From: a virus
Taxonomy: Duplodnaviria; Heunggongvirae; Uroviricota; Caudoviricetes
IMG/VR virus record: IMGVR_UViG_3300010370_000025
Reading direction: 5' to 3' (one strand)
DNA length: 48,803 nt
Positions 1 through 22,859 of the stretch are shown here, one piece after another; position 1 is the stretch's first letter, and every line of letters begins with the position of its first letter. A model generated the notes under the pieces. It was not told the DNA's origin. It ran no database searches and was given only the letters and a program-made list of their open reading frames with translations. Made by a program: the position numbers and the translations under genes.

Positions 1-270
1 GACTATGGTTATGTAAACGTAAGTGATATGTGGATAGGGGTAGAAATGATTAATAAATTTGGCCCAGACTATTGGTGGAATAATTATTCTGATTTATACT
101 CAAAAGTATGTAAAGATTTTAATTTAAAAGAATCTAACAGCATACATGTTGGTTGGCACAACGGGTCTCAATTAGGTATTAGAACACCACTCAGACTTCT
201 TATAGAAGGTGTTTATGATGAGAGAGGGTCAGATAAAGGTCTAAACACAATAGAAAGAACAGAAGCGTGA
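1..270 (+). CDS. 5'-truncated hypothetical protein
   Basis: Frame is open from base 1 (DYGYVNVSDMWIG...). The stop overlaps the next start (GTGA). Confidence 0.6.
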   Translation, partial: DYGYVNVSDMWIGVEMINKFGPDYWWNNYSDLYSKVCKDFNLKESNSIHVGWHNGSQLGIRTPLRLLIEGVYDERGSDKGLNTIERTEA

Positions 271-791
271 TTGCAGAAGGGTGGATTACTGAAATAGAGA
301 TAGAACTTGTATCAAAGTATATGAACAAAGATTCTGGTTCTATTTTAGAAGTAGGTGCAGCAAACGGTAGAATGTTTTCTTATCTTTACAATTTACATCC
401 TAACTGGAAGTATTATGCTGTAGATCCTTGGGAACAAGAGCAAGTAAGACTGCAAATAGACTGGAATAAAGATTATTTTGAAAAAGATAATCTTAAAGAG
501 ATAATTACTAAAGAAATGTTTGTTAAAAATTGTCCTTATGCAGAAACGTATGAAATGTATTTTGAAAATTTTTATTCAGAGCAAAAATTTGATATAATCA
601 GTTTAGGATTAATAAGTAAAAATATTGACTGGACTGCAGTTTATGATAAAGCATATAATATGCTATCTACAAGTGGTGTAATAGTAGGAAGAAATTTTAA
701 CCATAAAAAATATGGCGATGATATTAAAAAGGCTGTTTCTAGTTTTAAAGTAATCGATCAATGTAAAGGTTCTTTTGTTATTAGGAAATAA
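267..791 (+). CDS. class I SAM-dependent methyltransferase
   Basis: Motif I ILEVGAANG, followed by the acidic beta-2 motif YAVDPW. Confidence 0.75.
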   Translation: MIAEGWITEIEIELVSKYMNKDSGSILEVGAANGRMFSYLYNLHPNWKYYAVDPWEQEQVRLQIDWNKDYFEKDNLKEIITKEMFVKNCPYAETYEMYFENFYSEQKFDIISLGLISKNIDWTAVYDKAYNMLSTSGVIVGRNFNHKKYGDDIKKAVSSFKVIDQCKGSFVIRK

Positions 792-792
792 A

Positions 793-1470
793 ATGTATAA
801 ATTTGGTAAATACAATTTTAATCATAATTTAAATTATCATATTAATAAATCTGAAGAAGTTTTATCTCACGAAGATGTTAAAACTACAGGAAGTAAGAAC
901 TTTAACTTATTTTTTCCTATAAAAAACGATATTAAAAAACAATTAGAGTCATATCTTAATAACAATATTAAAGCAAACCTTAATTGGAATTTTGAATATT
1001 TTCAATCAGGTGAACCTGCCGGTCTTCATACTGACTTTGAATTAACTCCGTGGAATAAAGATATAGATTGTAGACTTGATGTAGGAGTTATAATCCCGCT
1101 TAAATGGAATTGCAAACAACCCTATACAATTTTTTACGATAGAGTTGAAAGCGTGCCTCGTAAGCTTATATACCGTAAAGGTGAAATGAGATATAAAGAT
1201 ACTAATGAAGTGATTAATTACAGAGATAGCTGGGTATATGATGAAGAAGTATTGAAATATAACCCTAAAGGTACACAATATTATAGAGAATATGCAGATT
1301 TAAAAATAAAATCTTTATACGAGTGGGAAGTAGGCTCTATGTGTGTTTTTGATACTAGAAGATGGCATTCTTCTTCCTGGTTTTTATCAACAGATAATTT
1401 ACCAGATATATCAACTGAATTTAAAAGATCGATAATAGGGTTTGGTTCTGTAGATGTTCCGCGCAATTAA
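793..1470 (+). CDS. putative 2OG-Fe(II) oxygenase (DSBH fold)
   Basis: HxD motif (GLHTD), distal His (FDTRRWHSS) and a C-terminal Arg strand (KRSIIGF). ATG at 793 preferred over the 775 start. Confidence 0.6.
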   Translation: MYKFGKYNFNHNLNYHINKSEEVLSHEDVKTTGSKNFNLFFPIKNDIKKQLESYLNNNIKANLNWNFEYFQSGEPAGLHTDFELTPWNKDIDCRLDVGVIIPLKWNCKQPYTIFYDRVESVPRKLIYRKGEMRYKDTNEVINYRDSWVYDEEVLKYNPKGTQYYREYADLKIKSLYEWEVGSMCVFDTRRWHSSSWFLSTDNLPDISTEFKRSIIGFGSVDVPRN

Positions 1471-2629
1471 GCAAGAAAATAGCGACTCTTTTAGTGTAGT
1501 TTGGGATTTAGGTAGAAGGTGTACCTTTACATGTTCTTATTGTGGACCTCATCATAGAAATAATTGGTCGCCAAACGCAGATTTACAAACACTTAAAAAT
1601 ACACTTGATGGTGTTGCTCGTTATACAAGTTTGTTAAATAAGTATCGCAAAATTCCCAAAAGAACTTCTCTTGCTTTCACTGGAGGAGAACCAACAGTAA
1701 ATCCTCATTTTTTTGATTTTATAGAATATGCTAAGCAAAAATATAAATCTATAGCTACTAACATTACTACTAATGGATGTTATAGCGAGAGAAAATGCAA
1801 ATTAATTATAGACAATGTAAGTAGTTGCACTATAAGTTATCACGCAGAAATGACTGAACAAGAAAAAATATTAGTTCATAATAACATAGAATTAATGCAT
1901 AAAAATAATTATAACTTTAGAGTGAATCTAATGTTTCATAAAGATTATTTTGATGACTGTATTTCAGTAGCTAACTGGTTTGATAGTTTAGGTGTTAGGT
2001 ATACACCAAGAGTTATAGGTGATTCAAATAACATAGAAGATGTTAAGGATGGAACTGCACACGTTTATAGTGATACGCAGCTTCAATGGTTTAAAGATTA
2101 CTGGCGCAATAAAAATCAAATTGTAAACATCGAAGCAAAATCTTGTGAAGTAGCCACAAAAATTGGAAGACCTTGCTGTGCTAATAAAAAATTAAATTTG
2201 CTTATTGATAATGAATGGCAACCAGGGTCATTTGTTCCAGACAATAATTTTTATGGTTGGAATTGTATGATTAACTGGTATTTCCTTTTTATTAATAGTG
2301 AAATAGACGGTGTGTGGCATCACCAAACATGTCAGGTAAATTTAGACGGGCAAGTAGGTCCTATAGGAAAAGCTAGCGATTTTGAATCTATAATTAAAAA
2401 TTTAGAAGATAAACTATCTAATAATACTTTTAATGTTATTAAATGCCCTAAAACATATTGCGGGTGTGGTTTATGCGCTTCAAAAGCTGCAGACGAGCAT
2501 GTTGCTAGTGAAATTTTTAAATCTAGCATAAATAATTTAGAACCAATTTTTCAAAAAGATGTTCAAAAGCTTGACAAAGCTAATTCAATAATTAATATTT
2601 TAAAACAGCGTGATATTTTAAATGAATGA
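1454..2629 (+). CDS. radical SAM protein with C-terminal Cys cluster
   Basis: CTFTCSYC (CxxxCxxC), FTGGEPT, C-terminal CPKTYCGCGLC. Confidence 0.9.
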   Translation: MFRAIKQENSDSFSVVWDLGRRCTFTCSYCGPHHRNNWSPNADLQTLKNTLDGVARYTSLLNKYRKIPKRTSLAFTGGEPTVNPHFFDFIEYAKQKYKSIATNITTNGCYSERKCKLIIDNVSSCTISYHAEMTEQEKILVHNNIELMHKNNYNFRVNLMFHKDYFDDCISVANWFDSLGVRYTPRVIGDSNNIEDVKDGTAHVYSDTQLQWFKDYWRNKNQIVNIEAKSCEVATKIGRPCCANKKLNLLIDNEWQPGSFVPDNNFYGWNCMINWYFLFINSEIDGVWHHQTCQVNLDGQVGPIGKASDFESIIKNLEDKLSNNTFNVIKCPKTYCGCGLCASKAADEHVASEIFKSSINNLEPIFQKDVQKLDKANSIINILKQRDILNE

Positions 2630-3773
2630 TTCTTTTTGTGTGTTGCCTTGGACGCATGTTTGTATTTCTACCACGCAGCAAATAATTCCCTGCTGTAGAT
2701 TTCAGTCTCCTAAACCTAATATAAGTTTAGCTTCTTTAAATAAAAATGGAATAGAAGCACTTAATATTCAAGAATATAGTAAAATTAGAGAAGATATGTT
2801 GCTCGGTAAAAAAATAGAGCAATGTAAAAAGTGTTATTTTGAAGAAGACAACAATATAAGTTCTTATAGAAATTATGCTAAACATTTCTTTTTAAAAGAG
2901 GGTGATGAATTTAAAGATAATAAATTTAAAGAAATGAGATATTTAGAACTTTCTTTAGATAATATTTGTAATCTTCAATGTAGAATGTGCAGTAGCAATT
3001 TTAGTACAAAGTTAATCTTGAGAGATCAAGAGCTATCAAAATATTCATGGAATAAAAACGATTATAGAGCCTATAAAAAACTAGAAATAGATTTTTCTTT
3101 TTTGGATAAAATTGATATAACTAAATTACAAGAAATAAAATTGTTAGGAGGAGAGCCGTTTATGTCTCCTAACTTTAATAAATTTATTGATTATATTATT
3201 AGCAAAATAGCCCCTGAAAATATCACTCTTTTTATTGCTACTAACGGTACTCATAAATTATCTAATGAATTGATTGACAAGTTAAGTAAGTTTAAACTTC
3301 TTAAACTTAGAGTTAGTTTTGATACATATTCAAAAGCTAATGATTACCAGAGATTTGGTAGCTCATATTTAGAGGTTTGGAATAATCTTCTTAAATATAT
3401 TGAAGTGTGGCCAAATGCTGAGATTGGTGTGCATTCAGTTATATCTACTTACAATGCAAATAAATTAGGAATTTCGTTAGAACAATATAAAAAATATAAT
3501 GTTGATTATCGATTAGATTTTGTTCGAAATCAAGAAATGTCTCTCTCTTTTATCCCAGTTGATCTAGCAGAATGGTTAAGAGATAAAAATAGCGAAGATG
3601 AAGTAGCCAGTAAATATATAAACAACATATTAGACGAAAGAGAGTATGCTCCTGATAAATGGGAAATGTTTTTAAAAAATACAAAAATATTAGATAACTT
3701 CTATAACATCTCTTTAAAAGATTATAACCCTGAACTTTATGAGGTTTTAAATAAAAAATATGGATATAGTTAA
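2622..3773 (+). CDS. radical SAM protein with N-terminal twitch/SPASM-like domain
   Basis: N-terminal FCVLPW...PCCR...CKKCY, then CNLQCRMC and LGGEPF. Confidence 0.9.
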   Translation: MNDSFCVLPWTHVCISTTQQIIPCCRFQSPKPNISLASLNKNGIEALNIQEYSKIREDMLLGKKIEQCKKCYFEEDNNISSYRNYAKHFFLKEGDEFKDNKFKEMRYLELSLDNICNLQCRMCSSNFSTKLILRDQELSKYSWNKNDYRAYKKLEIDFSFLDKIDITKLQEIKLLGGEPFMSPNFNKFIDYIISKIAPENITLFIATNGTHKLSNELIDKLSKFKLLKLRVSFDTYSKANDYQRFGSSYLEVWNNLLKYIEVWPNAEIGVHSVISTYNANKLGISLEQYKKYNVDYRLDFVRNQEMSLSFIPVDLAEWLRDKNSEDEVASKYINNILDEREYAPDKWEMFLKNTKILDNFYNISLKDYNPELYEVLNKKYGYS

Positions 3774-4428
3774 AAAATTACCTGAAGGTAAGCATAACAT
3801 AGTTGTTAAGTTAAGCGGGGGTGCTGATTCTTCTCTTATTTATTATGTTTTATGTAAAGAGTATGCAAATAATAAAGATGTAAATTTAATAGTTGTTACT
3901 CTTAATACAGATAAAAAACCGTACTATATTCCTTTTGCGCAAAAAATAATTAAACGCGTTTATGATTTAACTGGTAAAGTTCCTATAGATCATATGACTA
4001 TTAGTATTAAACATGATCCTGATGATTACGTTTCTTATCAAGATGAGCTTGTTGATCAAGCTATTAAAAAATATAACCCTGCGCTTATGTATTCAGGGCT
4101 AACTATGAACCCCCCGGCAGAAGAGATGAAGCAATTTTTTATAGACAACTATAAAAAAATTAATATAGACTTGTTGGAAGTATTAAAGAGTATTGATTCT
4201 AGAGATAAAGTAAGAGATTATACTCAGTACAGATCTAATAATTTTAATATTTTACCTTTTGGTCAATCAAATAAAAAAGCAGTAGCTGCTGCATACCGAC
4301 AGCATGATGCAATGGAAAGATTGTATCCATATACAAGAAGTTGTGAAGCATTTTCAGATAAAGAAGAGCATTGCGGAAATTGTTTTTTTTGCGCTGAGCG
4401 TTGGTGGGGATTTGGACGGTTAGTATGA
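3760..4428 (+). CDS. QueC-like PP-loop ATPase
   Basis: SGGADS PP-loop, TRSCE, HCGNCFFCAER Zn-site pattern. Confidence 0.75.
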   Translation: MDIVKKLPEGKHNIVVKLSGGADSSLIYYVLCKEYANNKDVNLIVVTLNTDKKPYYIPFAQKIIKRVYDLTGKVPIDHMTISIKHDPDDYVSYQDELVDQAIKKYNPALMYSGLTMNPPAEEMKQFFIDNYKKINIDLLEVLKSIDSRDKVRDYTQYRSNNFNILPFGQSNKKAVAAAYRQHDAMERLYPYTRSCEAFSDKEEHCGNCFFCAERWWGFGRLV

Positions 4429-5282
4429 GTAAAATTGTTGAAGCTTATAACGCAAACAGATATAAAAATAATTTTAATTTTTTTAATATAGATGGATTAC
4501 CTATTCCATTTTTAAAAGATAGTAAGCGTATTCTCATTTGGATGTCAGGAGGAGCAGATTCTGCTCTTCTATCTTATCTTCTATGTGAATATATTACTGA
4601 AAACAATCTAGATGTAGAAGTGCATGTCTTACAATTTATAAGAAAGTGGGAAAAAGCACCTTGGCAGCAAACAATAGGTAAAGGTGTGTATAACTATTTT
4701 GTAACTAAATTTAATAATATTAATTTTACTAGACATGAAGCTCTTATTCCAACGTTAGTAGAGCATGTAGTATTTGTAGATAAAAATGACGCATATGCTA
4801 AAAAAGAAATAATAGATTTTACAGGTGGAGATGTTGTATTAACTAATGAAAATTGTTATTTTATAACTGCAAAATATAATATCGATATTAATTACAACGC
4901 TACTACCCGTAACCCTCCTATAAATTTTGATAACCGTGTTAGATCAAGAGATATAGATTGCGATGGTTCTGAAAAGTCGTCTTTTAAATTATTAGGAAAA
5001 GCTAACCCTCTTAATAGTTATAATTGTAATCCTTTTATTTACACTGACAAATCATGGGTTATTAAGCAATATAAAGATAGAAATCTTTTAGATCTTTTAA
5101 ATATAACTCGCTCGTGCGAAGCATATATTAGCGGTATTGACTATTCTAATTGGGATAATAATGTTGATTTATTAGAAGATTGTAACACTGAATGTTATTG
5201 GTGTCAAGAAAGAAACTGGGCGTTAGAACAAAACGGGTTGTTAAAGTTTAAAAATAAATTTGGTAAAGTAAATGTACTTTAA
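4425..5282 (+). CDS. QueC-like PP-loop ATPase (paralogue)
   Basis: MSGGADS, TRSCE, CNTECYWCQER. ATGA overlap at 4425 supports this start. Confidence 0.7.
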   Translation: MSKIVEAYNANRYKNNFNFFNIDGLPIPFLKDSKRILIWMSGGADSALLSYLLCEYITENNLDVEVHVLQFIRKWEKAPWQQTIGKGVYNYFVTKFNNINFTRHEALIPTLVEHVVFVDKNDAYAKKEIIDFTGGDVVLTNENCYFITAKYNIDINYNATTRNPPINFDNRVRSRDIDCDGSEKSSFKLLGKANPLNSYNCNPFIYTDKSWVIKQYKDRNLLDLLNITRSCEAYISGIDYSNWDNNVDLLEDCNTECYWCQERNWALEQNGLLKFKNKFGKVNVL

Positions 5283-6270
5283 TGATGAACTTGTTACTAA
5301 AGTTTTAGGAAAAGTTAATTACGGTTATATAGATTGGATGCTAGGTAACGTATGCAATTATAGATGTTCTTATTGTTTTGACGGGGCTAATGAAGGTAAT
5401 TTTAAATTTCCAATTTTCAATCAACAGCTTAAAGATAATTTAATATTTTTAAATTCTAAAATAAGTAATAACTCAGACAAATTTGTTATATGGCACTTAG
5501 CAGGAGGAGAGCCCACCTTATATAAAAATTTAGAAGAACTAATTACTTACATTAGAGCTTTTACAAACAATTTTATTTCAGTTGTTACAAATGGGAGTAG
5601 ACCTATAAATTGGTGGAAAAATAATCAAAACCTGTTTGATAGTATTTCTATTTCATTTCACTCTGAATATAGTGATATTAATCATATTAAAGAGTTGTCT
5701 TTATTTTTAGATAAGATAAGTCTTGTTAATGTTATGATAGGTAAACATAACTACGACGAAGCTATAAAATACTTTTTAGAATTAAGTAATTATTTTACAG
5801 AGAATAAAATTTTTAATATAAAATTGTCTTTTCTAAAAATAAGAGATTCATTTAGACCTAATTCTATTTTTTTAGATTTTTCTAAAGAACAAATATTAGA
5901 TATTTTAGAAATTCAAAAAGTGCATGAAACAAAGTATATTGTAAAACGAAATAAAAGTAATATACCAGTTAGTTTAAAACATTATTTAATTACTAAAAAT
6001 AATAAAATAGAATTAAATAGAATAGAAGAATTTTCTTTAAACGGCACCTGGAAAGGTTATAAGTGTTTTGCTCCTAAAGAATTTATACAAATACACGCAG
6101 ACGGAAATGTAGGCACAATGAGTTGTGGTCAAAAACTTTTTAATTCTAACATTTATAATTTAAATTTTACTAACGATTTTATATTTTTTGAAGATGGAAT
6201 TGTATGTGAAAAAGGTATTTGCGGGTGTCATGGCTTACTAGAATCATCGAAAAAGTTTATTTATGAATAA
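5272..6270 (+). CDS. radical SAM protein
   Basis: CNYRCSYC, AGGEPT, C-terminal CEKGICGC. Confidence 0.9.
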   Translation: MYFNDELVTKVLGKVNYGYIDWMLGNVCNYRCSYCFDGANEGNFKFPIFNQQLKDNLIFLNSKISNNSDKFVIWHLAGGEPTLYKNLEELITYIRAFTNNFISVVTNGSRPINWWKNNQNLFDSISISFHSEYSDINHIKELSLFLDKISLVNVMIGKHNYDEAIKYFLELSNYFTENKIFNIKLSFLKIRDSFRPNSIFLDFSKEQILDILEIQKVHETKYIVKRNKSNIPVSLKHYLITKNNKIELNRIEEFSLNGTWKGYKCFAPKEFIQIHADGNVGTMSCGQKLFNSNIYNLNFTNDFIFFEDGIVCEKGICGCHGLLESSKKFIYE

Positions 6271-6907: not shown

Positions 6908-6934
6908 TATACAATATACTTTTAAGGGCACACA

Positions 6935-8622: not shown

Positions 8623-9062
8623 TTGAAATTATTGATGAATTAAATATTATACCTTTTTGGCAGCAATTGTGGCCAGGAAGACAAATACCTCTTATGAGCT
8701 CTATGCTATTTCCTAAAGGGTATGATATATCAATCTATAAAAAATATAAACCTACTTATTTTGGGTATAGTATAGATGGTAACATTATAGGAGTCAATAG
8801 CGGCCATAAAACAAGCGATACTGATTATAGATCAAGAGGTCTTTTTGTATTACCTGAATTTAGAAACAGAGGTGTTGCAGTTAAACTTTTAGAAGCTACT
8901 ATTAACCAAGCAAAAGAAGAAGATTGCTCTATTGTATGGACAGTTCCTAGAGACACTTCTTTATATGCATACTATAAAGCAGGCTTTGATAGAGCAAGTG
9001 ATTTTTTCGAAACAGAAACTAGTGCAAAAAATTGTTATGCAATTTATAAAATAGATGGCTGA
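8619..9062 (+). CDS. GNAT N-acetyltransferase
   Basis: Motif A LFVLPEFRNRGVAVKLL and motif B YYKAGF. Confidence 0.8.
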   Translation: MIEIIDELNIIPFWQQLWPGRQIPLMSSMLFPKGYDISIYKKYKPTYFGYSIDGNIIGVNSGHKTSDTDYRSRGLFVLPEFRNRGVAVKLLEATINQAKEEDCSIVWTVPRDTSLYAYYKAGFDRASDFFETETSAKNCYAIYKIDG

Positions 9063-10587
9063 TGTAGTAATTTTTACGGAATGCAACGGTAGTATAGGTT
9101 GGGGCAGAGATGCAGGAGCTTATACTGTTGCATCTAGACTTAGAGAAGTTGGATATAATGTTAAGGTGATTGATTTTTTCAGTCACTTTAATTTTAGTAT
9201 GTTTAAAGCCGCTATTGATAATTTTGTAACTAAAGATACTTTATTTTTAGGGTTTAGTTCAACTCATTTTAGCACTCTAAAGCCAGATGAGTGGGAACAA
9301 CATTGGCAGTCTGATAGTAGAACACGTAAAAATAATATGTGGAATGTTTATTTTCCATTTACTCCAGAAGAATTAAACGAATGGTTTAGTTATGCTAAAC
9401 AAAAATATAATAATCTTAAAATAATTGTCGGTGGACAGAAGGTAGCACAAAAACAATCACTACAGAAGAAGTATCCTTTTGTAGATATATGGGTAGGCGG
9501 AATGGCTGATAAAGCTGTAGTAAGTATTGCTAACTCATTAAAAAATAAAGAGATTTTACCTAATAGAATTAAATCAGAACTAGATTATGGAAATATAGAA
9601 GAGAATGTTTTTAACACTAGCAAAATACATTGGGCAGTCGACGACAATATTTTTGCAGGAGAAGCCCTGCCGCTTGAAATTTCAAGAGGATGCCCGTTCG
9701 AATGCGCGTTCTGTGATTACACTAAAAAGAAAACTAATACTTGGACTGTTAAAGCTGACAACTTAAGACAGCAGTTACTTTATAACTACTATATGTTTGA
9801 TGTTACTCATTATATGCTTACCGATTTTCAAATTAATGAAAATATGGATAAGTTAAAGATGATTCATAAAGTGTTTACAAATTTACCTTTTAAGATTACG
9901 TGGTCTGGATTTGGAAGATTAGACCTTATTAAAGCAAAACCTGAGATGGTAGATCTCATTTATGAAAGTGGATGTAGATCTATACAATGGGGTATTGAAA
10001 CTGTTAATGATAGTGTGGGTCCTCTTATTGGTAAAGTAACTAAAAGAGATATTATTGAAAAATCATTAGACTTATGTAAGTCTAAATGGAAAGATGATGT
10101 AGTAATGGGTAGCGGATTCATACTTGGATTACCAGGCGAATCATTACAGTCATGTAAAGAACTTGTTAATTGGACAGAAACACAGCCATGGCTTAATGCA
10201 TGGGAGATAACTCCTTTATATATTGGTACTTACAATAAGGAAAAAGAATATACTATTGACTATAGTAAGATTCAAAAGAATCCAGAGAAGTATGGATATA
10301 AGATTTCTATGGAACTAAATAATAATGGAGTGTATATTGAAGATTGGTCTAACAATGATATGACTAAATCTGCTTTAATTGAGATGATAGAAGAAACACA
10401 AAAAAGTGATGCTTGGCAAAGGCGTATTATGACTTCATATCTCGGGTATAGCCGTTGTAGTAATTTAGGATTCAATCATAGAGAGTTATTGTCTGCTAAT
10501 AAAAATAACAAGACATGGATTAAACAACATGCAGACAACTATAAAAGTTTAGCCAACATTTATTTACAAAAGAATGGTTTAGTATGA
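9055..10587 (+). CDS. B12-binding-domain radical SAM protein
   Basis: N-terminal Rossmann-like GAYTVASRLREVGYNVKVIDF and IIVGG. EISRGCPFECAFC, GIET, FILGLPGES. Confidence 0.85.
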   Translation: MADVVIFTECNGSIGWGRDAGAYTVASRLREVGYNVKVIDFFSHFNFSMFKAAIDNFVTKDTLFLGFSSTHFSTLKPDEWEQHWQSDSRTRKNNMWNVYFPFTPEELNEWFSYAKQKYNNLKIIVGGQKVAQKQSLQKKYPFVDIWVGGMADKAVVSIANSLKNKEILPNRIKSELDYGNIEENVFNTSKIHWAVDDNIFAGEALPLEISRGCPFECAFCDYTKKKTNTWTVKADNLRQQLLYNYYMFDVTHYMLTDFQINENMDKLKMIHKVFTNLPFKITWSGFGRLDLIKAKPEMVDLIYESGCRSIQWGIETVNDSVGPLIGKVTKRDIIEKSLDLCKSKWKDDVVMGSGFILGLPGESLQSCKELVNWTETQPWLNAWEITPLYIGTYNKEKEYTIDYSKIQKNPEKYGYKISMELNNNGVYIEDWSNNDMTKSALIEMIEETQKSDAWQRRIMTSYLGYSRCSNLGFNHRELLSANKNNKTWIKQHADNYKSLANIYLQKNGLV

Positions 10588-12362
10588 GCCGAATAATTAT
10601 TTTAAGTGATATCTATGATGTGCGTGGTACAGGAGGTACAAAATTTCGCTCTCACTTTCTAGAAGAGGAAGAGAGAGAAGATATGATTAACCATGCAAAA
10701 TTAGATAAACTGTTAGATGTAGTATATAACCCTAAATCAAACAGTAATTACGCTACAGGTAAATACGTAGGCTCAAGTAAATATAATTTTTGGACTCGTT
10801 ATATGGGCCCCTATACTATTGCATCAAATATTCGTGAAAAATGTCCTGATTGGGATGTAGTAGTATTAGATTATTTTACTAAATTAGATAATTTTTTTGA
10901 AGTATTTGAGCAGCTAGTTACACCAGATACTAAGTATGTTGCTCTAAGTATCACATTCTTAAATAATCCATTTAATCCTAAACAAAAAGATTTTAATTTA
11001 TGGCATTTTAGCCATCAAGAATGTTTAGATTGGTTTGCTAAAATAAAAAATATAGCTCCTAACGCAGAGATTATTATTGGTGGAGCATTAGTAGATACTT
11101 TTTATAAACAACATATCACTCAAAAGAAAAAATTTGATCTTCCAGAAGCTATGCGTAGGTATGTAAGCTACGCGTTTCATGGTTATGGTGAAAAAACTAT
11201 TGTTAATTTTTTAAATAATACTTTAGATGAAAAACAAGTATTTGAAAAACAAGGTGTAAAGTTTATTAATGAGCCTGCCTTAGCAGGTAAAGGCGCTTTA
11301 ATTAATAGTACTAGATGGACAAGAAACGATGCTATTCAGCCAGGTGAATGGCTTCCGCTAGAAATTTCTAAAGGTTGTCGTTTTGGTTGTAAGTTTTGTT
11401 TCTATGATCATAGCGGCACAGTTATTAAAGATCCAAAAATTCTTAGAGAAGAACTTATCTATAATTATGAAAATTTTGGTACTACAGGCTACCAGCTAAC
11501 TGATGACACTGTGAATGATAGTCCTGCAAAAATTAATATGATGCATGATGTTATTAAGAGTCTACCATTTAATATAGAATGGATAGCTTATACTCGCCCT
11601 GATATGTTTTACAAGTATCCGTGGATGCTAGAAAAAATGCTTGACATGGGCTGTAGAGGTATGTTCTTGGGTGTGGAGACATTTAATCATACAGCAGCTA
11701 AAATTGCCGGTAAAGGATTACACCCAGATAAAATTAAAGATATTATTAGATGGTTAAGAGAAACATGTAAAGATGATGTTTTTATTTTAGCTAGCTTCAT
11801 TATTGGGCTTGTAGGTGAAACAGAAGAATCATTAATGGATACTGCACGTTGGCTTAAAGAACAAAAATATCTCGACAAAGCACAATATGAAATACTTTTT
11901 GTAAGTGATGAAGGGGGTCGCACATCTAATGAGTTTTCAGAAAACTCTAGCAAGTTTGGAATTAGAGAAGTAAGATGGAACCCTGATTATTATTGGAGAC
12001 ATGATACATTAGATCTACCTCAATGTAAGGAGATTGCATTGAAGTGGGAAGATATGATGTCAGAACATTCAATAACTCAGTTTGAAAGACATAGCGACTA
12101 TAATGTTAGTTTTTGGGCTTATCCAAGATTAAGAAGTTTTGGACTGTCACATAAAAATGCTAAAAATGTTCTTAAGTCGCAGGTTGTTCCGGGCGAGGTT
12201 TATAGAAGAAATATCGAGTGGGTCGCTAAATACCATTCAGATATAGTTAACAATAACGGGCTGTCTATATGTCCGCAGAGTAATAAAGAGTGGGCATTTC
12301 CGCCTGATAAGAGTATGCGAAACTCATGGTCTAAAATTAAGTTTGATCAAATAAATGTCTAA
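10584..12362 (+). CDS. B12-binding-domain radical SAM protein
   Basis: GPYTIAS, IIIGG, EISKGCRFGCKFC, GVET, FIIGLVGET. Confidence 0.85.
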   Translation: MSRIIILSDIYDVRGTGGTKFRSHFLEEEEREDMINHAKLDKLLDVVYNPKSNSNYATGKYVGSSKYNFWTRYMGPYTIASNIREKCPDWDVVVLDYFTKLDNFFEVFEQLVTPDTKYVALSITFLNNPFNPKQKDFNLWHFSHQECLDWFAKIKNIAPNAEIIIGGALVDTFYKQHITQKKKFDLPEAMRRYVSYAFHGYGEKTIVNFLNNTLDEKQVFEKQGVKFINEPALAGKGALINSTRWTRNDAIQPGEWLPLEISKGCRFGCKFCFYDHSGTVIKDPKILREELIYNYENFGTTGYQLTDDTVNDSPAKINMMHDVIKSLPFNIEWIAYTRPDMFYKYPWMLEKMLDMGCRGMFLGVETFNHTAAKIAGKGLHPDKIKDIIRWLRETCKDDVFILASFIIGLVGETEESLMDTARWLKEQKYLDKAQYEILFVSDEGGRTSNEFSENSSKFGIREVRWNPDYYWRHDTLDLPQCKEIALKWEDMMSEHSITQFERHSDYNVSFWAYPRLRSFGLSHKNAKNVLKSQVVPGEVYRRNIEWVAKYHSDIVNNNGLSICPQSNKEWAFPPDKSMRNSWSKIKFDQINV

Positions 12363-13422
12363 GCAAATACTAAGCTATACCAATCATTATAAATTTAATA
12401 CCCCTGTAGAATTTAAAAAAGGGTATGGTGATATAATAGTAGATAGTGAAGGTAAATCTTATTTCGATGCAACTAGTGGATTATGGAATGTAAATTATGG
12501 TTATTGCAACAAAGAAATTCAAGATGCAGTCGTCGAACAAATGGAGAAGTTACACTTCTACCCTAACCATTTTTGGTCCTATGCTGACGTTACCGAAAAA
12601 GCAGCTGATGAAATAACCAAGCTGTTTGGCTATAGTAAAGTTTATTTTGGTAATAGCGGTTCAGATGCTATAGATACAGCTAGTTATATTGCAAGGTTTT
12701 GTTTTAATGGTAGAAAAACTAATTTAGTTACTTTAACTAATAGCTATCACGGTGCTACAAAGCTTAATTTCGTTAATAATAAATTAAATCTTGGTGATAT
12801 AGATCATAATACAGCTCTTTTAGTTATAGAGCCTCTTAAAGTTAATTCAGGTGTGCATGAAACTAGCTGGGAGACTATTAATTATGCATTTGAATTAAAA
12901 CGTAAGTATGGATTTTTAATTGCTTATGATGAGACAGTTACTGCATTAGGACGAGGAGGTGATCTTGCTTATGCTTTAAGAAACTTTAAACCAGATATTC
13001 TTATTGCTAGCAAAGGTCTTACTAATGGTATGTTTCCGTTATCAGCTACAATGGTTAGTGAAGAAGTAGCAGATCAAATCTATAAAACTAATGAGGTGTT
13101 TAATTATGGCTATACAACTTCAGGACATCCGCTGGCATGCGCTGCACTTTTAAAGGTTTTAGAGTTATATAAAAAATACCCTGTTAGCAAGACTGCTAAA
13201 GGGTTTGACAAATACTTAAAAGTTAATACTAGACAATACGGACTAGCTATTGGTATTGATGTTAAGGATGGTCCAGAAGCTCGTAAAGAAGCAAAAAAGC
13301 TTAACTATCTAGTACGTAACTATATTAATACAATTATTGTATGCCCTATGTTTACTAGTACAGCTTCTAACTATGCTTCTCTTTTTGAATATTTAAATAG
13401 TGTCTCAGTATCTCACTACTAA
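12355..13422 (+). CDS. class III PLP-dependent aminotransferase
   Basis: YFDATSGLWNVNYG, DETVTALGR, PLP lysine in SKGL, GYTTSGHPLACAA. Confidence 0.85.
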   Translation: MSKQILSYTNHYKFNTPVEFKKGYGDIIVDSEGKSYFDATSGLWNVNYGYCNKEIQDAVVEQMEKLHFYPNHFWSYADVTEKAADEITKLFGYSKVYFGNSGSDAIDTASYIARFCFNGRKTNLVTLTNSYHGATKLNFVNNKLNLGDIDHNTALLVIEPLKVNSGVHETSWETINYAFELKRKYGFLIAYDETVTALGRGGDLAYALRNFKPDILIASKGLTNGMFPLSATMVSEEVADQIYKTNEVFNYGYTTSGHPLACAALLKVLELYKKYPVSKTAKGFDKYLKVNTRQYGLAIGIDVKDGPEARKEAKKLNYLVRNYINTIIVCPMFTSTASNYASLFEYLNSVSVSHY

Positions 13423-13915
13423 CTTTAAAATTATATTTACTTGGAAGATCATATATAAGCCAATCTAAACCAGTAACAACTTCTCTACAATTAGGTGAAC
13501 CGCACCCACATTTATTTAATATCACATAATTATGATTAATGAAAGATGAGTAGTCTACTGTTAGATGCTCATCTTTTTTTATGTCCTTTATTGCTCTAAT
13601 TGTATTATCTTCTAAATAACAATTAGGCTCACAACTATGATTATGTGAACCGTTTAAATCAGGAGATAGCCCCCCTTGAAAAAAATATAGCTTGTCTATT
13701 AAATGGAAATAATCTTCTTTAAACTCTTGACGTTCATCATGAGATAACCAAATTCCTCCTATACGATAAACAGCTTCATCTTGATGTATATCCTCTAAAG
13801 CAAATCTTCCATGACCTATATTTTTATCAACTATTCTTAGTTCAGTTTTTGTACTAGCAATACCTAATGATATTTTATTATTGTTAATAAACTTTATTAA
13901 ATCAATTTTGTTCAT
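13367..13915 (-). CDS. SET-domain lysine methyltransferase with post-SET
   Basis: GHGRFA, NHSCEPNC, EHLTVDY, post-SET CGCGSPNCR. Confidence 0.85.
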   Translation of the reverse strand: MNKIDLIKFINNNKISLGIASTKTELRIVDKNIGHGRFALEDIHQDEAVYRIGGIWLSHDERQEFKEDYFHLIDKLYFFQGGLSPDLNGSHNHSCEPNCYLEDNTIRAIKDIKKDEHLTVDYSSFINHNYVILNKCGCGSPNCREVVTGLDWLIYDLPSKYNFKVSSEILRHYLNIQKEKHS

Positions 13916-14807
13916 AATTTAATTCTCTAAGAAGAGGAACATCAAACTTTTTAATATAATCTGTAAATTCTGTCATCTTTACTCTATTAGAATATGAAGC
14001 AATTTTATCTCTATATTCTTTATCAAGATCGGAATATAATTCAAATCCTGTTAATTTAGGTCTAGGCTCTAAATCAAACTCTTCCATAGCTAATTGACAT
14101 TTAACTTTATTAATATTAAGATATCTTTGTTTTTTAGCAGTCTCTACCCATCTATAAACCGACTCACGCTGTAAAAACGAAAGCATTAACTCTGGTGTAT
14201 ATTGAAAAAATGAAGGAATAATTTCTTTTTCTTTATTTTGAAAATATAATGCAAGTCTAGTTTCTTTTTCTTGTTCTATATCATATACTTGCAAACTATA
14301 TTTTGTTTCACCTTCATATTTTCTAGAAAGAAAATTCTCCCCCATTCCTAACACAGGTATACTATTAATTTTTTCTATACAATAAGCAAGAAGATTAAGT
14401 TGAGGGCTATTACATTTAGTCCTATATGCCATCTCTACAACTGAATTTTTAAAAAACATCTCTACGTTTATATCAAATATATCAGGAGATATTCCATACT
14501 TTGCGCATAGCCTTAATGCATAGTTAATATCGTGCATGTTAAGATTGCGCTCATATCTTATTATAGTAACTCTAGGAGTAATGCCAGCAGCTATAAAACT
14601 AAGCAACATTATTTCAGAATCAATTCCTCCACTTAAAAGCAGATCTAATTTGTTTCCGTGCTTATCGTAAAGCTCTTTAGCTACATTTATACATTCTTGT
14701 CTAAATGTTTTATGTGATTTAACCTTACCAAATTCAACCTTAAACTCATCTTCGTGATAAATTTTAAGATGATTATTTTTTGTATATTCAAAAATGTTTT
14801 TTTGCAT
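13902..14807 (-). CDS. PP-loop (asparagine-synthase-like) ATP pyrophosphatase
   Basis: LLLSGGIDSE PP-loop. Confidence 0.6.
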   Translation of the reverse strand: MQKNIFEYTKNNHLKIYHEDEFKVEFGKVKSHKTFRQECINVAKELYDKHGNKLDLLLSGGIDSEIMLLSFIAAGITPRVTIIRYERNLNMHDINYALRLCAKYGISPDIFDINVEMFFKNSVVEMAYRTKCNSPQLNLLAYCIEKINSIPVLGMGENFLSRKYEGETKYSLQVYDIEQEKETRLALYFQNKEKEIIPSFFQYTPELMLSFLQRESVYRWVETAKKQRYLNINKVKCQLAMEEFDLEPRPKLTGFELYSDLDKEYRDKIASYSNRVKMTEFTDYIKKFDVPLLRELNYEQN

Positions 14808-16188
14808 ATTCTAAAGCCAGTCCATTTGCTTGTTGACGAGCAGATGTATAATTAACATCGCTTAGGTTCATTTTCATAACTTCACTCATTGGTTTTTGAT
14901 ATGTAGCACTTAGTTCACCTAATAACCAGCCTCCTACACAACAATGAGGATCACACCATTCATTAGCTTGTAAAGCAGCTATCCTTATATGTTCGTGCCA
15001 CAGATTTTTATATTCCCAATTAATCATATTATTAGGTCTAAATTTAATATTATATGTATTATAGTTTCTATCAAACTCGCTCTGATATAGTTTCCCTGAA
15101 ACAGGATTAACATAAAGAGCCCACCATTTCCATCTATACATTTTATTATCTATGAGCCACTGCATATCTTTTTCAAGCTCACTATACGTCCATCCAGGTA
15201 TACCTAATATTAAACCTAAATGCCAATTAATTTTATTATCCCATCTCTCTCTGAGTTTAGGGAGAAAATCTTTTGCATGTGTACCTGACCAACTTTTACC
15301 TACTAGTTTAGCACTGTATGGATTAAATGTTTCTATACCAAAAAACGCGGATCTTAATCCACTTTCTTCTAACATATCTATAGTATGTGGTTTAGCCCAT
15401 AAAAGATCAGCTCTTAAAAATCCTAACCACTCAAGCTCAAACGGAACAGAGTTACGAAGTTTTACTAAATCTTTAAGTTTTTCCTCATCATCATTAATAG
15501 TATCATCTGTATAATAATATTTTGTAACACCCCATCGCTCATAGTTATACATAACTTCATCACGAAGATTTTCAAACGTTCTTGTATATGTACCTTTTTT
15601 CTTACCTATGTAAGGATAACTACAAAATTTACATTTAAATACACAACCTCTTCCAAGCTCTAATGTAAGAACTTCATGAGGATTAATATAATCGTTTTCT
15701 GTATACGTGCGTACAAAATTTTTAATATCGAACGAAGGTCTAACTATCTTAGCTCCAGACTTCTCATCAAAATATTTTAAAATATTATTTTCTGCATAAT
15801 CTGGCATTCTTAGCCATTTTAGATTACTATAAACTGAATTAGCATTTGCTCCTCCTAAAATCCATTCTATATTAGGATACTTGCTTTCTACCTTCTTTCT
15901 TGCTATACTCACCCATTCAGGAACTGGAATCACTACTTTCTTTACACCGTCTTGTATTTCTGTATCTAAATTCCAGAAAGTAGCACTACACCCAATTGCA
16001 TAAGTATCTCTAGTAATATACCTTTCGGTTAATTCCGCTATAATATCTGGTGATAAGTTATAACCGAAATCAATGACCTGTACAGTATATCCGTACTGTC
16101 GTAACCAGCTAGCAACCTGGTATGGTCCACCTGTTCTTAGTATAGAATGCACAATATCTGTGCCAGACCATATGATAAAATTAGCCAT
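14788..16188 (-). CDS. B12-binding-domain radical SAM protein
   Basis: GPYQVASWLRQYGYTVQVIDF, WILGG, ELGRGCVFKCKFC, GIET. Confidence 0.85.
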   Translation of the reverse strand: MANFIIWSGTDIVHSILRTGGPYQVASWLRQYGYTVQVIDFGYNLSPDIIAELTERYITRDTYAIGCSATFWNLDTEIQDGVKKVVIPVPEWVSIARKKVESKYPNIEWILGGANANSVYSNLKWLRMPDYAENNILKYFDEKSGAKIVRPSFDIKNFVRTYTENDYINPHEVLTLELGRGCVFKCKFCSYPYIGKKKGTYTRTFENLRDEVMYNYERWGVTKYYYTDDTINDDEEKLKDLVKLRNSVPFELEWLGFLRADLLWAKPHTIDMLEESGLRSAFFGIETFNPYSAKLVGKSWSGTHAKDFLPKLRERWDNKINWHLGLILGIPGWTYSELEKDMQWLIDNKMYRWKWWALYVNPVSGKLYQSEFDRNYNTYNIKFRPNNMINWEYKNLWHEHIRIAALQANEWCDPHCCVGGWLLGELSATYQKPMSEVMKMNLSDVNYTSARQQANGLALEYAKKHF

Positions 16189-16236: not shown

Positions 16237-16265
16237 GTTGCTTTTTTAACGAAAACATACTATAA
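16237..16265 (+). promoter_or_regulatory. early sigma70-type promoter
   Basis: GTTGCT-N17-CTATAA preceded by AAAACA. Matches the repeated motif in this window. Confidence 0.65.
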
Positions 16266-16268
16266 ATA
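16261..16268 (+). promoter_or_regulatory. T4-type late promoter
   Basis: TATAAATA 4 nt before the ATG at 16273. Confidence 0.5.
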
Positions 16269-16272
16269 GAGT

Positions 16273-19370: not shown

Positions 19371-19392
19371 TTTACTATGATAGGAGTTACAA

Positions 19393-19485: not shown

Positions 19486-19491
19486 AGTTAC

Positions 19492-22849: not shown

Positions 22850-22859
22850 CGAGGGAAAA

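What the first reader, a model, noticed from the sequence alone, without database searches (positions are those of the whole stretch)
1..16188. 16-kb phage cluster of about 17 tailoring enzymes with no evident substrate
Seen: 7 CxxxCxxC radical SAM genes, 3 SGGxDS PP-loop ATPases, 2 HxD..H oxygenases, a methyltransferase, sulfotransferase, GNAT, class III aminotransferase and SET protein. Almost all are joined by overlapping stop/start codons, in two convergent operons. Known: T4-like phages use such enzyme classes to hypermodify DNA bases or decorate virion proteins and glycans. Inference: this is an uncharacterised multi-step modification pathway. No precursor peptide, transporter or DNA-modifying transferase is visible in the window, so the target could be virion protein, DNA, tRNA or a small molecule.
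Basis: partly seen in the sequence, partly recalled or inferred. Interest (0 to 1): 0.85.

Follow-up and report, generated by a model that had tools for sequence, protein, structure and literature searches.

The report
Mobile phage radical-SAM tailoring island
An uncultured marine T4-like phage carries a 23-gene block with twelve iron-sulfur "radical SAM" enzymes and other tailoring enzymes; the block is intact, under purifying selection and exchanged between very different ocean phages. It most likely remodels a sugar-type small molecule, but no member has a tested function.

Summary
It starts 6.5 kb before the window, right after gp44-gp62-regA. In total it spans 22.7 kb and 23 overlapping genes, 12 of them radical SAM. 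Four of those belong to NCBIfam NF033640 (N-terminal-twitch rSAM), which has no known function. The "sulfotransferase" label is unsupported. All 17 genes that can be compared with a diverged colinear relative show dN/dS of 0.03-0.20. The right half (rSAM, three B12-type rSAMs, cupin hydroxylase, GNAT, omega-aminotransferase, then convergent SET and PP-loop genes) keeps its order in 10 viral contigs. These include jumbo phages whose DNA polymerase is only 30-41% identical, while island proteins are 43-80% identical, so the island moves horizontally. Relatives of the core rSAM are about 100% viral. There is no precursor peptide, protease, transporter or DNA transglycosylase. Related arrays carry nucleotide-sugar enzymes (Ugd, DegT, SDR epimerase). 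My best reading (about 0.4) is a pathway that tailors a sugar-type small molecule. The rivals are an amino-acid-derived metabolite, protein modification and nucleic-acid modification. This scan has already noted N-twitch rSAM arrays in many other phage genomes, and two papers mention such genes in passing.

The parts
1..270 (+). C-terminal 89 aa of u6, a 302-aa PLP-dependent fold-type-I (Aminotran_1_2/alliinase-like) protein that starts 636 nt before the window
   Evidence: Full gene is L004:7909-8817. ESM Atlas neighbours carry PF00155 or PF04864. It is conserved in related arrays at 29-71% identity.
267..791 (+). w1, class I SAM methyltransferase-like (174 aa)
   Evidence: Methyltransf_23 E 2.8e-5, below cut-off; weak hit to NanM sugar O-methyltransferase.
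793..1470 (+). w2, probable non-haem Fe(II) oxygenase (225 aa) of an unnamed viral family
   Evidence: No Pfam hit. H79, D81 and H192 are invariant in 21 homologues. 52-57% identical copies in L001-L003 and L020/L021.
1454..2629 (+). w3, radical SAM with C-terminal Cys motif (391 aa)
   Evidence: PF04055 35.7 bits; CTFTCSYC at residue 23.
2622..3773 (+). w4, N-terminal-twitch radical SAM (383 aa), NF033640 member
   Evidence: NF033640 246.5 bits against cut-off 170. SPASM-like domain at residues 6-72 lies ahead of the core.
3760..4428 (+). w5, PP-loop ATPase, distantly QueC-like (222 aa)
   Evidence: SGGADS at residue 19. PF06508 27.1 bits, but TIGR00364 QueC only 20.7 bits against cut-off 150.
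4425..5282 (+). w6, PP-loop ATPase, paralogue of w5, with a C-terminal Cys cluster (285 aa)
   Evidence: SGGADS at residue 41. BLASTP to w5 E 2.6e-12.
5272..6270 (+). w7, small radical SAM (332 aa)
   Evidence: PF04055 40 bits. Best NCBIfam hit is prokaryotic viperin at 60.5 bits, against cut-off 180.
   Evidence: No family at E <= 1. Only 3 homologues. dN/dS 0.16 against the L029 copy.
6935..8038 (+). w9, the most conserved radical SAM of the island (367 aa) and first gene of module B
   Evidence: PF04055 55.3 bits. 61-80% identical in 12 or more related loci. Best structural neighbours are BlsE, EpeE and SkfB at Z about 16.
8038..8622 (+). w10, Asp/Asn-hydroxylase-type cupin (194 aa)
   Evidence: PF05118 37.6 bits. 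Orthologues in all module B loci.
8619..9062 (+). w11, GNAT N-acetyltransferase (147 aa)
   Evidence: PF00583 44.7 bits. Weak best NCBIfam hits are AAC(6') enzymes.
9055..10587 (+). w12, B12-binding-type radical SAM (510 aa)
   Evidence: PF04055 48.8 bits. PF02310 17.2 bits, below cut-off. PhpK-family 86.6 bits against cut-off 600.
10584..12362 (+). w13, B12-binding-type radical SAM (592 aa)
   Evidence: PF04055 56.2 bits. Paralogue of w12 and w17. 66-76% identical in 10 IMG/VR contigs.
12355..13422 (+). w14, compact class III (omega-type) aminotransferase (355 aa)
   Evidence: PF00202 154.5 bits. Nearest PDB chains are omega-transaminases. The catalytic Lys and PLP motifs are invariant in 6 orthologues.
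13367..13915 (-). w15, minimal stand-alone SET-domain methyltransferase (182 aa)
   Evidence: PF00856 48 bits. Best PDB hit is BurB, a methionine S-methyltransferase, at E 7e-7, ahead of histone methyltransferases at 6e-5.
13902..14807 (-). w16, PP-loop ATPase of a large unnamed family (301 aa); always paired with w15
   Evidence: SGGIDS at residue 59. 1076 representative clusters. The family profile hits only PP-loop N-terminal domains in PDB.
14788..16188 (-). w17, B12-binding-type radical SAM (466 aa). In relatives its orthologue sits on the + strand directly after w9.
   Evidence: PF04055 65 bits. 43-46% identical orthologues next to w9 in L020-L028.

Best explanation
The finding is the right-hand 16 kb of a 22.7-kb, 23-gene, phage-specific tailoring island that moves horizontally between phages.

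Module A, partly upstream of the window, is an array of radical SAM enzymes: four N-terminal-twitch NF033640 members, one SPASM type and three small twitch-like ones. They are mixed with a PLP enzyme, a methyltransferase, an Fe(II) oxygenase and two QueC-like PP-loop ATPases.

Module B (6935-16188) is a fixed set: one highly conserved radical SAM, three B12-type radical SAMs, a cupin hydroxylase, a GNAT, an omega-aminotransferase, a minimal SET methyltransferase and a PP-loop ATPase.

I propose that the island acts on a low-molecular-weight, sugar-type substrate taken from host metabolism, either a nucleotide sugar or a sugar residue. The radical SAM enzymes would oxidise, epimerise, deoxygenate or decarboxylate it. 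The B12-type enzymes would C-methylate it. The aminotransferase would aminate a carbonyl, and the GNAT would acetylate the new amine. The PP-loop enzymes would adenylate and amidate carboxylates. The product would be a heavily decorated sugar used on a virion or infected-cell glycan.

Shown: the gene content, conserved synteny, purifying selection, viral restriction, horizontal mobility, and absence of peptide- or DNA-pathway hallmarks. Inferred: the class of substrate, every reaction assignment and the fate of the product.
For: Real and functional:
- 23 intact, overlapping genes.
- A colinear relative, L029, is 63-96% identical at protein level, with dN/dS of 0.025-0.20 in all 17 comparable genes at dS of about 0.8-1.8.

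Functionally linked:
- Module B keeps the order w9, B12-rSAM, cupin, GNAT, B12, B12, aminotransferase, then convergent SET and PP-loop, in 10 IMG/VR contigs at 43-80% identity. Even the overlapping convergent 3' ends are kept.
- Module A genes recur in the same order in L001-L003, L007-L011 and L014-L016.

Mobile:
- G006 and G007 are jumbo-phage fragments (170 and 147 kb at 48% and 41% CheckV completeness). Their PolB is only 30-41% identical to the window's gp43, while w9 is 79% and w13 70% identical.
- Island GC is 28-32% against 32-45% elsewhere in the window.

Viral:
- ESM Atlas clusters around u2 are 97-100% Viruses.
- NF033640 is above cut-off in none of 14 control genomes.

Small-molecule rather than peptide:
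- w14's nearest solved structures are omega-transaminases.
- Relatives insert an aldehyde dehydrogenase and nitroreductases into module B.
- The best PDB hit of w15 is the small-molecule SET enzyme BurB (PMC12542666).
- The u2 homologue occurs alone in L017.
- The island has no room for a precursor ORF.

Sugar:
- Ugd lies directly upstream of the arrays in L007, L009 and L010, and DegT in L007.
- A census of 55 non-cluster neighbours gives an SDR epimerase/GDP-mannose dehydratase, RmlD-like, GFO_IDH_MocA, carbamoyltransferase, Ugd and DegT, with no RiPP hallmark among the 25 of 42 families shown.
- SDR epimerase/dehydratase genes lie inside or within about 6 kb of the N-twitch regions of G006 (with DegT beside it), G007 and G008.
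- The top structural neighbour of both w9 (Z 16.4, rmsd 4.2, 264 residues aligned) and u2 (Z 8.8, rmsd 4.3, 211 aligned) is BlsE, which decarboxylates a glucuronic-acid nucleoside.
- A 262-aa mini-Ugd lies 3.4 kb downstream of the island.
Against: - The window's island has no glycosyltransferase, sugar nucleotidyltransferase or sugar dehydratase.
- No GT2 or GT1 gene passes its cut-off in five related viral records.
- BlsE is statistically tied with the peptide-modifying enzymes EpeE (Z 16.2) and SkfB (Z 16.0) for w9, and with SkfB, CteB and MoaA for u2. The w9 model is mediocre (pLDDT 64).
- SET, Asp/Asn hydroxylase and GNAT families are best known as protein modifiers.
- A class III aminotransferase is not the usual sugar aminotransferase; DegT is.
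- Every specific NCBIfam hit is far below its cut-off.
- The island lies in the regA-gp43 hypervariable region, not beside fibre genes as in L021.
Confidence: 0.4

Rival explanations
1. The island makes or converts an amino-acid-derived small metabolite that is not a sugar, such as a sulfonium, betaine or polyamine-type compound. The SET enzyme would methylate a free amino acid, as BurB methylates methionine. PLP enzymes would decarboxylate or transaminate it. An aldehyde dehydrogenase (present in relatives) would oxidise the aldehyde. The B12-type rSAMs, the GNAT and the PP-loop enzymes would tailor it further.
For: - The best PDB hit of w15 is BurB (E 7e-7, 32 bits), a protein of the same minimal size, about 180 aa.
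- The BurB/BurI/BurD/BurE pathway is methyltransferase, decarboxylase, aminotransferase, aldehyde dehydrogenase (PMC12542666). Module B has SET plus an omega-aminotransferase in every locus, an ALDH in L019, L021, L025 and L028, and a PLP enzyme (u6-like) in L025 and L027.
- w14 keeps all class III catalytic motifs.
Against: - The BurB match covers only the generic C-terminal SET/post-SET half (residues 84-157) and beats histone methyltransferases by only about 6 bits.
- The window's copy lacks the ALDH.
- Nothing in this scheme needs twelve radical SAM enzymes.
- Nucleotide-sugar genes embedded in related arrays are left unexplained.
Confidence: 0.2
2. The enzymes post-translationally modify phage or host proteins, in a RiPP-like or virion-protein maturation system. 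The twitch/SPASM rSAMs would make crosslinks or epimerise residues. The B12-type rSAMs would C-methylate side chains, as in proteusins. SET would methylate lysines, the cupin would hydroxylate Asp/Asn, and the GNAT would acetylate amines.
For: - SET, PF05118 and GNAT families are classic protein modifiers.
- The nearest solved folds include SkfB, CteB, EpeE, PqqE, SuiB and anSME.
- In L021 the island abuts a 967-aa subtilase and an Mtd_N/glycoprotein-repeat fibre gene.
- A conserved 73-74-aa ORF precedes the u1-u2 core in six other arrays.
Against: - No precursor-like ORF fits in or beside this island; the only gap is 27 nt.
- The 73-74-aa ORF has no homologue in the window or L004.
- No RRE/PqqD, leader peptidase or exporter was found in any scan.
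- An omega-transaminase and an ALDH are unusual for protein chemistry.
- The core rSAM can occur alone.
Confidence: 0.2
3. The island hypermodifies nucleic acid: phage DNA bases or phage/host tRNA. The PP-loop ATPases would activate base carbonyls or carboxylates, and the rSAMs would act like QueE, MiaB or TYW1.
For: - Three PP-loop ATPases have weak QueC, MnmA, TilS and NcsA similarity.
- The + operon follows gp44-gp62-regA with no late-promoter motif in 21 kb (0 found, 7.4 +/- 2.4 expected). This suggests early or middle co-transcription with replication genes.
- The window holds 12 tRNA genes.
Against: - The island has no transglycosylase (DpdA/TGT), base kinase or DNA glycosyltransferase.
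- QueC and QueE equivalog scores are 18-31 bits against cut-offs of 150-260.
- The same module sits beside fibre genes in jumbo phages.
- Arrays with 14 or more rSAM genes in 21 kb (L010) are hard to reconcile with base modification.
- The regA-gp43 gap is a general hypervariable region that also holds the curli cassette (PMC7029224).
Confidence: 0.08
4. There is no single pathway. The block is a hypervariable dump of independent auxiliary genes that happen to be co-transcribed.
For: - N-twitch copy number and cassette content vary widely between loci, from 1 to more than 14 rSAM genes.
- w8 is nearly an orphan.
- The island sits in a known hypervariable region.
Against: - Module B order and orientation are conserved in 10 contigs across phage lineages.
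- A u1, u2, w9 core recurs, and it is the entire rSAM content of the 6.3-kb contig L012.
- Translational coupling is seen at nearly every junction.
- Purifying selection is uniform across the genes.
Confidence: 0.05

Closest known systems
NCBIfam NF033640, N_Twi_rSAM (twitch domain-containing radical SAM protein)
   Same: w4 (246.5 bits) and the upstream u2, u3 and u5 (424.7, 341.4 and 207.3 bits) pass the 170-bit cut-off. They have the Cys-rich auxiliary-cluster domain ahead of the CxxxCxxC core.
   Different: The family is only a catalogue entry with no tested function. Here it sits in one operon with SPASM-type and small twitch-like rSAMs and is linked to a fixed B12-rSAM, aminotransferase, SET and PP-loop module.
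Radical SAM cassettes noted in marine T4-like phage genomes (pelagimyophage hypervariable islands, PMC7029224; T4-like environmental genome TARA_ERS488813_N000010 with 12 radical SAM genes, PMC5332604)
   Same: Same kind of phage: T4-like core genes and the curli csgF/csgG cassette. Same gene class, and even the same count of 12 radical SAM genes. The island lies in a hypervariable region.
   Different: Those papers only mention the genes, as Fe-S proteins or as cassettes. They define no modules and give no synteny, selection or transfer analysis and no function. I could not check whether the TARA genome is this phage.
Sugar-tailoring radical SAM enzymes of nucleoside and aminoglycoside antibiotic pathways (BlsE, BtrN, DesII, AprD4, GenK), with their class III aminotransferases and AAC(6')-type acetyltransferases
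   Same: BlsE is the top structural neighbour of w9 and u2. BtrN, DesII, AprD4, SpeY and AbmM are also listed. The enzyme mix is parallel: twitch rSAM, B12 rSAM, omega-aminotransferase and GNAT. Uronic-acid-forming Ugd genes flank related arrays.
   Different: Sequence identity is 10-18%. The ranking is tied with peptide maturases. There is no cyclitol or nucleoside scaffold gene and no glycosyltransferase. Membership of any of these pathways is not shown.
RiPP radical SAM systems (sactipeptide/SkfB/CteB, EpeE epimerase, proteusin PoyB/C/D)
   Same: Auxiliary-cluster rSAM folds, several B12-type rSAMs and a hydroxylase occur in one operon.
   Different: No precursor peptide, recognition element, protease or exporter is present, and the auxiliary domain is N-terminal in four of the enzymes.
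BurB/BurI/BurD/BurE methylation pathway to DMSP (PMC12542666)
   Same: A minimal SET methyltransferase of about 180 aa next to an amine aminotransferase, with an aldehyde dehydrogenase in relatives.
   Different: Only the generic C-terminal SET half aligns. No decarboxylase was identified, the window has no ALDH, and 12 rSAM genes have no counterpart.

Membership tests
NCBIfam NF033640 (N_Twi_rSAM) | Whole-protein HMM score at or above the curated 170-bit cut-off | tested here: met
   w4 246.5 bits; u2 424.7, u3 341.4 and u5 207.3 bits. The other eight rSAMs score 21-47 bits or have no listed hit, and are not members.
NCBIfam NF033640 (N_Twi_rSAM) | Cys-rich twitch/SPASM-like domain placed N-terminal to the CxxxCxxC core | tested here: met
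   PF13186 SPASM hits at residues 6-72 (w4), 10-97 (u2) and 2-73 (u3), ahead of PF04055. Cys28, Cys93, Cys96 and the Cys149/153/156 triad are invariant in 12 paralogues.
Radical SAM superfamily (PF04055) | CxxxCxxC cluster motif and Pfam score above 29.5 bits | tested here: met
   All seven window genes score 35.7-65 bits and carry the motif. Upstream, u1, u3 and u4 pass; u2 and u5 are sub-threshold on Pfam but pass NF033640.
Cobalamin-dependent (class B) radical SAM | N-terminal B12-binding Rossmann domain (PF02310) or membership of a curated B12-rSAM family | tested here: inconclusive
   Only w12 hits PF02310, at 17.2 bits against cut-off 32.1. The best NCBIfam hits are all B12-rSAM families (PhpK, BzaD, HpnJ, BchE, ladderane) but reach 54-92 bits against cut-offs of 360-600.
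RiPP biosynthetic cluster | Precursor peptide gene in or next to the cluster | tested here: not met
   The only intergenic gap is 27 nt. The conserved 73-74-aa ORF of other arrays has no homologue in the window or L004. A precursor encoded elsewhere in the genome cannot be excluded.
RiPP biosynthetic cluster | Recognition element (PqqD-like), leader peptidase or exporter | tested here: not met
   None appears in Pfam/NCBIfam scans of all 23 island proteins, nor among the 25 of 42 families shown in the 55-neighbour census.
Phage 7-deazaguanine / DNA hypermodification cluster | DNA transglycosylase (DpdA/TGT) or other DNA-modifying transferase in the cluster | tested here: not met
   No such family in any island protein.
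Phage 7-deazaguanine / DNA hypermodification cluster | QueC and QueE equivalogs | tested here: not met
   TIGR00364 QueC 20.7 bits against cut-off 150 for w5. QueE models score 18.5-30.8 bits against cut-offs of 206-260 for u4, w3, w4, w7 and w9.
Nucleotide-sugar / surface-glycan island (HRC type) | Glycosyltransferase genes in the cluster | tested here: not met
   None in the island. The nearest GT4 is at 34191-35207, 18 kb away. PF00535 and PF00534 are below cut-off in five related viral records. Unnamed GT families cannot be excluded.
Nucleotide-sugar / surface-glycan island (HRC type) | Nucleotide-sugar modifying enzymes (Ugd, DegT, SDR epimerase/dehydratase) in or beside the array | tested here: inconclusive
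   Met in relatives: L007, L009 and L010 and G006, G007 and G008. In the window there is only a 262-aa mini-Ugd, 3.4 kb downstream.
BurB-type small-molecule SET methyltransferase pathway | SET enzyme specifically related to BurB, plus decarboxylase, aminotransferase and aldehyde dehydrogenase | tested here: inconclusive
   BurB is the best PDB hit but only over residues 84-157. The aminotransferase is present. ALDH occurs only in relatives. No decarboxylase was identified.

The most novel reading that the evidence does not exclude
The island is a horizontally exchanged phage natural-product pathway. A conserved core (u1, u2, w9 plus module B) would build a new class of radical-tailored metabolite: a C-methylated, aminated and acetylated, amidated sugar or sulfonium-type compound. 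A fast-evolving panel of N-terminal-twitch radical SAM paralogues would diversify it combinatorially. This would give the first functions for family NF033640, for a viral small-molecule SET methyltransferase and for a large unnamed PP-loop family, and would show that abundant ocean phages run their own radical chemistry during infection.
Probability: 0.25. Interest if true: 0.85.

Novelty: new variant of a known kind. Interest (0 to 1): 0.62.

Why it matters
Radical SAM enzymes carry out some of the hardest reactions in biology. Here twelve of them sit in one operon of an abundant type of ocean phage, and their close relatives number in the thousands and are almost all viral. No member of the main family has a known substrate.

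This work gives concrete handles for experiments:
- a conserved core (u1, u2, w9);
- a fixed nine-gene module that crosses phage lineages;
- a small-molecule-type aminotransferase and SET enzyme that can be assayed directly.

If the product is a decorated sugar on virions or on the infected cell, it bears on host recognition and superinfection exclusion in the most abundant marine bacteria. If it is a free metabolite, it would be a virus-made natural product. Both outcomes would add new enzyme chemistry.

Tried and rejected
- Isolated phages: megablast of the island and tblastn of w13 and w9 against 50,697 phage records found nothing. u2 found only 22-29% identical rSAMs in Ralstonia and Vibrio jumbo phages and one marine single-cell virus contig.
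- PDB by sequence: u2 and w16 gave no hit. w9 and w13 gave only generic rSAM cores at E > 0.003. Profiles of the 227-aa 'head' proteins of other arrays (A3, A4) gave no meaningful hit.
- Foldseek on the u2 model gave only rSAM-core matches at TM about 0.3. This did not discriminate between substrates.
- Cellular homologues: the scan of 185,579 species genomes returned only MAG contigs labelled as nine unrelated lineages, several of them packed with rSAM arrays. I read these as mis-binned phage DNA, so they gave no cellular context.
- The first alignment for that scan was too diverse to use.
- Viral-contig scan with w17: no relative confirmed.
- Exact look-up of the L017 protein: not on record.
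- The record behind L004 is not searchable, and no whole genome is held. I therefore could not look elsewhere in this phage for glycosyltransferases, the 227a/227b/74-aa head module or a precursor.
- Promoter scan: sigma-70-like sites are at chance level, 100 found against 91 expected.
- Ugd of L009 against the window by tblastn: no hit; the window's mini-Ugd is a different, shorter lineage.
The 55 neighbour proteins could therefore only be scanned as a batch, which gives family counts and not which protein matched.
- Carnitine-like and ectoine-like enzyme parallels were considered and dropped as over-fitting. They rest on enzyme classes only.

Full report
**What is there.** The window comes from a T4-like marine myovirus. 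It encodes gp43 DNA polymerase (30672-33194), UvsX (35204-36262) and gp41 helicase (37275-38645). It also carries a csgF/csgG curli cassette, a CHASE2 cyclase, a metallophosphoesterase-GT4 pair and 12 tRNA genes. Its nearest isolated relatives by DNA are cyanomyoviruses, and only in core genes. The curli cassette is a reported hallmark of pelagimyophages (PMC7029224).

Bases 1-16188 hold 17 complete genes plus the end of an 18th. GC there is 28-32%, against 32-45% in the rest of the window.

**Checking the gene classes.** Pfam and NCBIfam confirm seven radical SAM genes, a GNAT, a class III aminotransferase, a SET protein and a PF05118 cupin. Three proteins carry an exact SGGxDS PP-loop. The second 'HxD..H oxygenase' (793-1470) has no family hit, but H79, D81 and H192 are invariant in 21 homologues. 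The methyltransferase is sub-threshold. The 'sulfotransferase' (6263-6907) has no support: no family at E <= 1 and only three relatives in 5.8 billion proteins.

Fourteen same-strand junctions overlap by 1-20 nt, one gene is offset by 1 nt and there is one 27-nt gap. The two operons converge with a 56-nt overlap.

**The cluster is bigger than the finding.** A 109.9-kb metagenome contig (L004) is identical to the window over all 12,629 overlapping bases. It shows that the island begins right after gp44-gp62-regA, 6,537 bases before the window. The six upstream genes are:
- a SPASM-type rSAM (u1);
- N-terminal-twitch rSAMs u2, u3 and u5;
- a small rSAM (u4);
- a 302-aa PLP fold-type-I protein (u6), whose tail is window 1-270.

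The whole island is 22,725 bp with 23 genes, 12 of them radical SAM. Four are members of NCBIfam NF033640 (207-425 bits against cut-off 170). Five are small SPASM or twitch-like paralogues. Three are B12-binding-type paralogues.

**It is functional and coherent.** A diverged relative (L029, from another sample) is colinear from u2 to w13. Protein identities are 63-96%. dN/dS is 0.025-0.20 for all 17 comparable genes at dS of about 0.8-1.8, and that includes the near-orphan w8.

The right half, which I call module B, keeps its order in 10 IMG/VR contigs. The order is w9 rSAM, B12-rSAM (the w17 orthologue, there on the + strand), cupin w10, GNAT w11, B12-rSAMs w12 and w13, aminotransferase w14, then convergent SET w15 and PP-loop w16. 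Identities are 43-80%, and the overlapping convergent 3' ends are kept. Relatives insert extra genes into module B: two nitroreductase-family proteins, an aldehyde dehydrogenase, a second cupin, and a PLP or unknown protein.

Module A genes (u1, u2, u3, u4, u6, w1, w2, w4, w5) recur in the same order in other loci. Arrays reach at least 14 rSAM genes in 21 kb. The 6.3-kb contig L012 carries only u1, w9 and u2, and one phage (L017) has a lone u2 homologue.

**It is viral and mobile.** ESM Atlas clusters around u2 are 97-100% viral. u2 has 3,991 database relatives. NF033640 passes its cut-off in none of 14 control genomes. The 'genome' hits are MAG contigs labelled as nine unrelated lineages and full of the same arrays, most simply explained as mis-binned phage DNA.

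Two carriers of module B (G006, 170 kb at 48% CheckV completeness; G007, 147 kb at 41%) are jumbo-phage fragments. Their PolB is only 30-41% identical to this phage's gp43, while w9 is 79% and w13 70% identical. No regA homologue was detected in those records. In L021 the island abuts a subtilase and a fibre-like gene. The island has therefore moved between phage lineages and between genome positions. Its low GC here fits that.

**What it acts on.** No hallmark of a ribosomal-peptide system appears: no precursor, recognition element, protease or exporter. No hallmark of DNA hypermodification appears either: no transglycosylase, and QueC and QueE models score 18-31 bits against cut-offs of 150-260.

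Several features point to a small molecule:
- w14's nearest solved relatives are omega-transaminases, and it keeps the catalytic Lys and PLP motifs.
- Relatives add an aldehyde dehydrogenase next to it.
- The best PDB hit of the minimal SET protein is BurB, a methionine S-methyltransferase, although only over the generic C-terminal half.
- u2 can stand alone.

Several features point more specifically to sugars:
- Ugd lies directly upstream of arrays in L007, L009 and L010, and DegT in L007.
- A batch scan of 55 non-cluster neighbours lists an SDR epimerase/GDP-mannose dehydratase, RmlD-like, GFO_IDH_MocA, carbamoyltransferase, Ugd and DegT.
- In G006, G007 and G008, SDR epimerase/dehydratase genes lie inside or within about 6 kb of the N-twitch regions, with a DegT fragment beside the G006 copy.
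- The top structural neighbour of both w9 (Z 16.4, rmsd 4.2, 264 aligned) and u2 (Z 8.8, rmsd 4.3, 211 aligned) is BlsE, a twitch rSAM acting on a glucuronic-acid nucleoside.

Against the sugar reading: BlsE is tied with the peptide maturases EpeE and SkfB. No canonical glycosyltransferase lies in the island or passes cut-offs in five related records. The window itself offers only a 262-aa mini-Ugd 3.4 kb downstream; the same short form sits near PolB in G006 and G007.

**Timing.** The late-promoter motif TATAAATA is absent from the 21-kb L004 stretch (7.4 +/- 2.4 expected) and from window 1-16188. The + operon is therefore probably read through from the gp44-62-regA early/middle unit.

**Verdict.** The interpretation as an uncharacterised multi-step modification pathway is supported, and the range of targets can be narrowed. 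I put about 0.4 on tailoring of a sugar-type small molecule, 0.2 on another amino-acid-derived metabolite, 0.2 on protein modification, under 0.1 on nucleic acid and 0.05 on no common pathway.

**Prior knowledge.** NF033640 is catalogued but uncharacterised. Two papers mention such genes in marine T4-like phages without analysis (PMC5332604, PMC7029224). A search for the family's name found nothing relevant. This scan has already reported N-twitch arrays, usually in sugar islands, in many other phage genomes. What is added here is the full extent of the island, the fixed module B and its transfer between T4-like and jumbo phages, the selection data, and the small-molecule indicators.

Noticed in passing
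window 16261-16416: A perfect late-promoter motif TATAAATA (16261-16268) sits 5 nt ahead of a 47-aa ORF starting at 16273. Its basic KGKGSY-containing sequence resembles the ribosome-rescue factor ArfA.
   Followed up: partly
window 16401-16709: A 102-aa ORF with a signal-peptide-like start, a run of five His and a Gly-rich hydrophobic stretch. Only a weak DUF1190 hit. Probably a secreted or membrane small protein.
   Followed up: no
window 19583-20371; also G006:C1:29893-30165 and G007:C1:24653-24937: A 'mini' UDP-glucose/GDP-mannose dehydrogenase-family protein of 258-264 aa. In the window copy it keeps the GxGxxG start and the GGSCFPKD catalytic-Cys motif but lacks the C-terminal nucleotide-sugar domain. 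The short form is conserved near the DNA polymerase in this T4-like phage and in two jumbo phages.
   Followed up: partly
window 13367-13422 and the equivalent sites in L019, L021, L025, L027: The 3' ends of the convergent aminotransferase and SET genes overlap by 56 nt here and by 32-56 nt in four other phages. This overlap of opposite-strand coding ends is conserved.
   Followed up: partly
L007:6256-7817, L009:4480-6326, L010:5046-6673, L011:6455-8896, L014:2-332, L012:3208-3870: Other arrays start with a conserved 'head' module that is absent from this window. It comprises a 227-aa virus-only protein with an invariant D-x-D (VDGD in most copies) and a weak GT2 hit, a 227-aa methyltransferase-like protein, and a 73-74-aa ORF that is 59-81% identical across loci, directly before the u1-u2 core.
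   Followed up: partly
G006:C1:50380-117228 (record behind L021): In this jumbo-phage fragment, N-twitch radical SAM genes are scattered over about 65 kb next to module B (10 matches, nine above the family cut-off). A sugar epimerase and a DegT gene lie among them. The rSAM-rich region is far larger than in the window.
   Followed up: partly
window 21558-26949: csgF, csgG, a curlin-repeat protein, a FecR-like protein and a CHASE2 adenylate/guanylate cyclase lie in one block. The cyclase matches phrog_35576 at 746 bits, so a near-identical protein exists in a catalogued phage.
   Followed up: no
window 14788-16188 versus L020-L028 positions about 2505-3929: The B12-type rSAM w17 is inverted and moved to the end of the minus-strand operon in this phage. 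In nine related contigs its orthologue follows w9 on the plus strand. This is a local rearrangement within an otherwise fixed module.
   Followed up: partly
window 19294-19567 and 45739-48800: Twelve tRNA genes: Leu, Met, Lys x2, His, Glu x2, Gln, Leu, Asn, Ser, Pro. Two of them lie between the island and the mini-Ugd gene.
   Followed up: no
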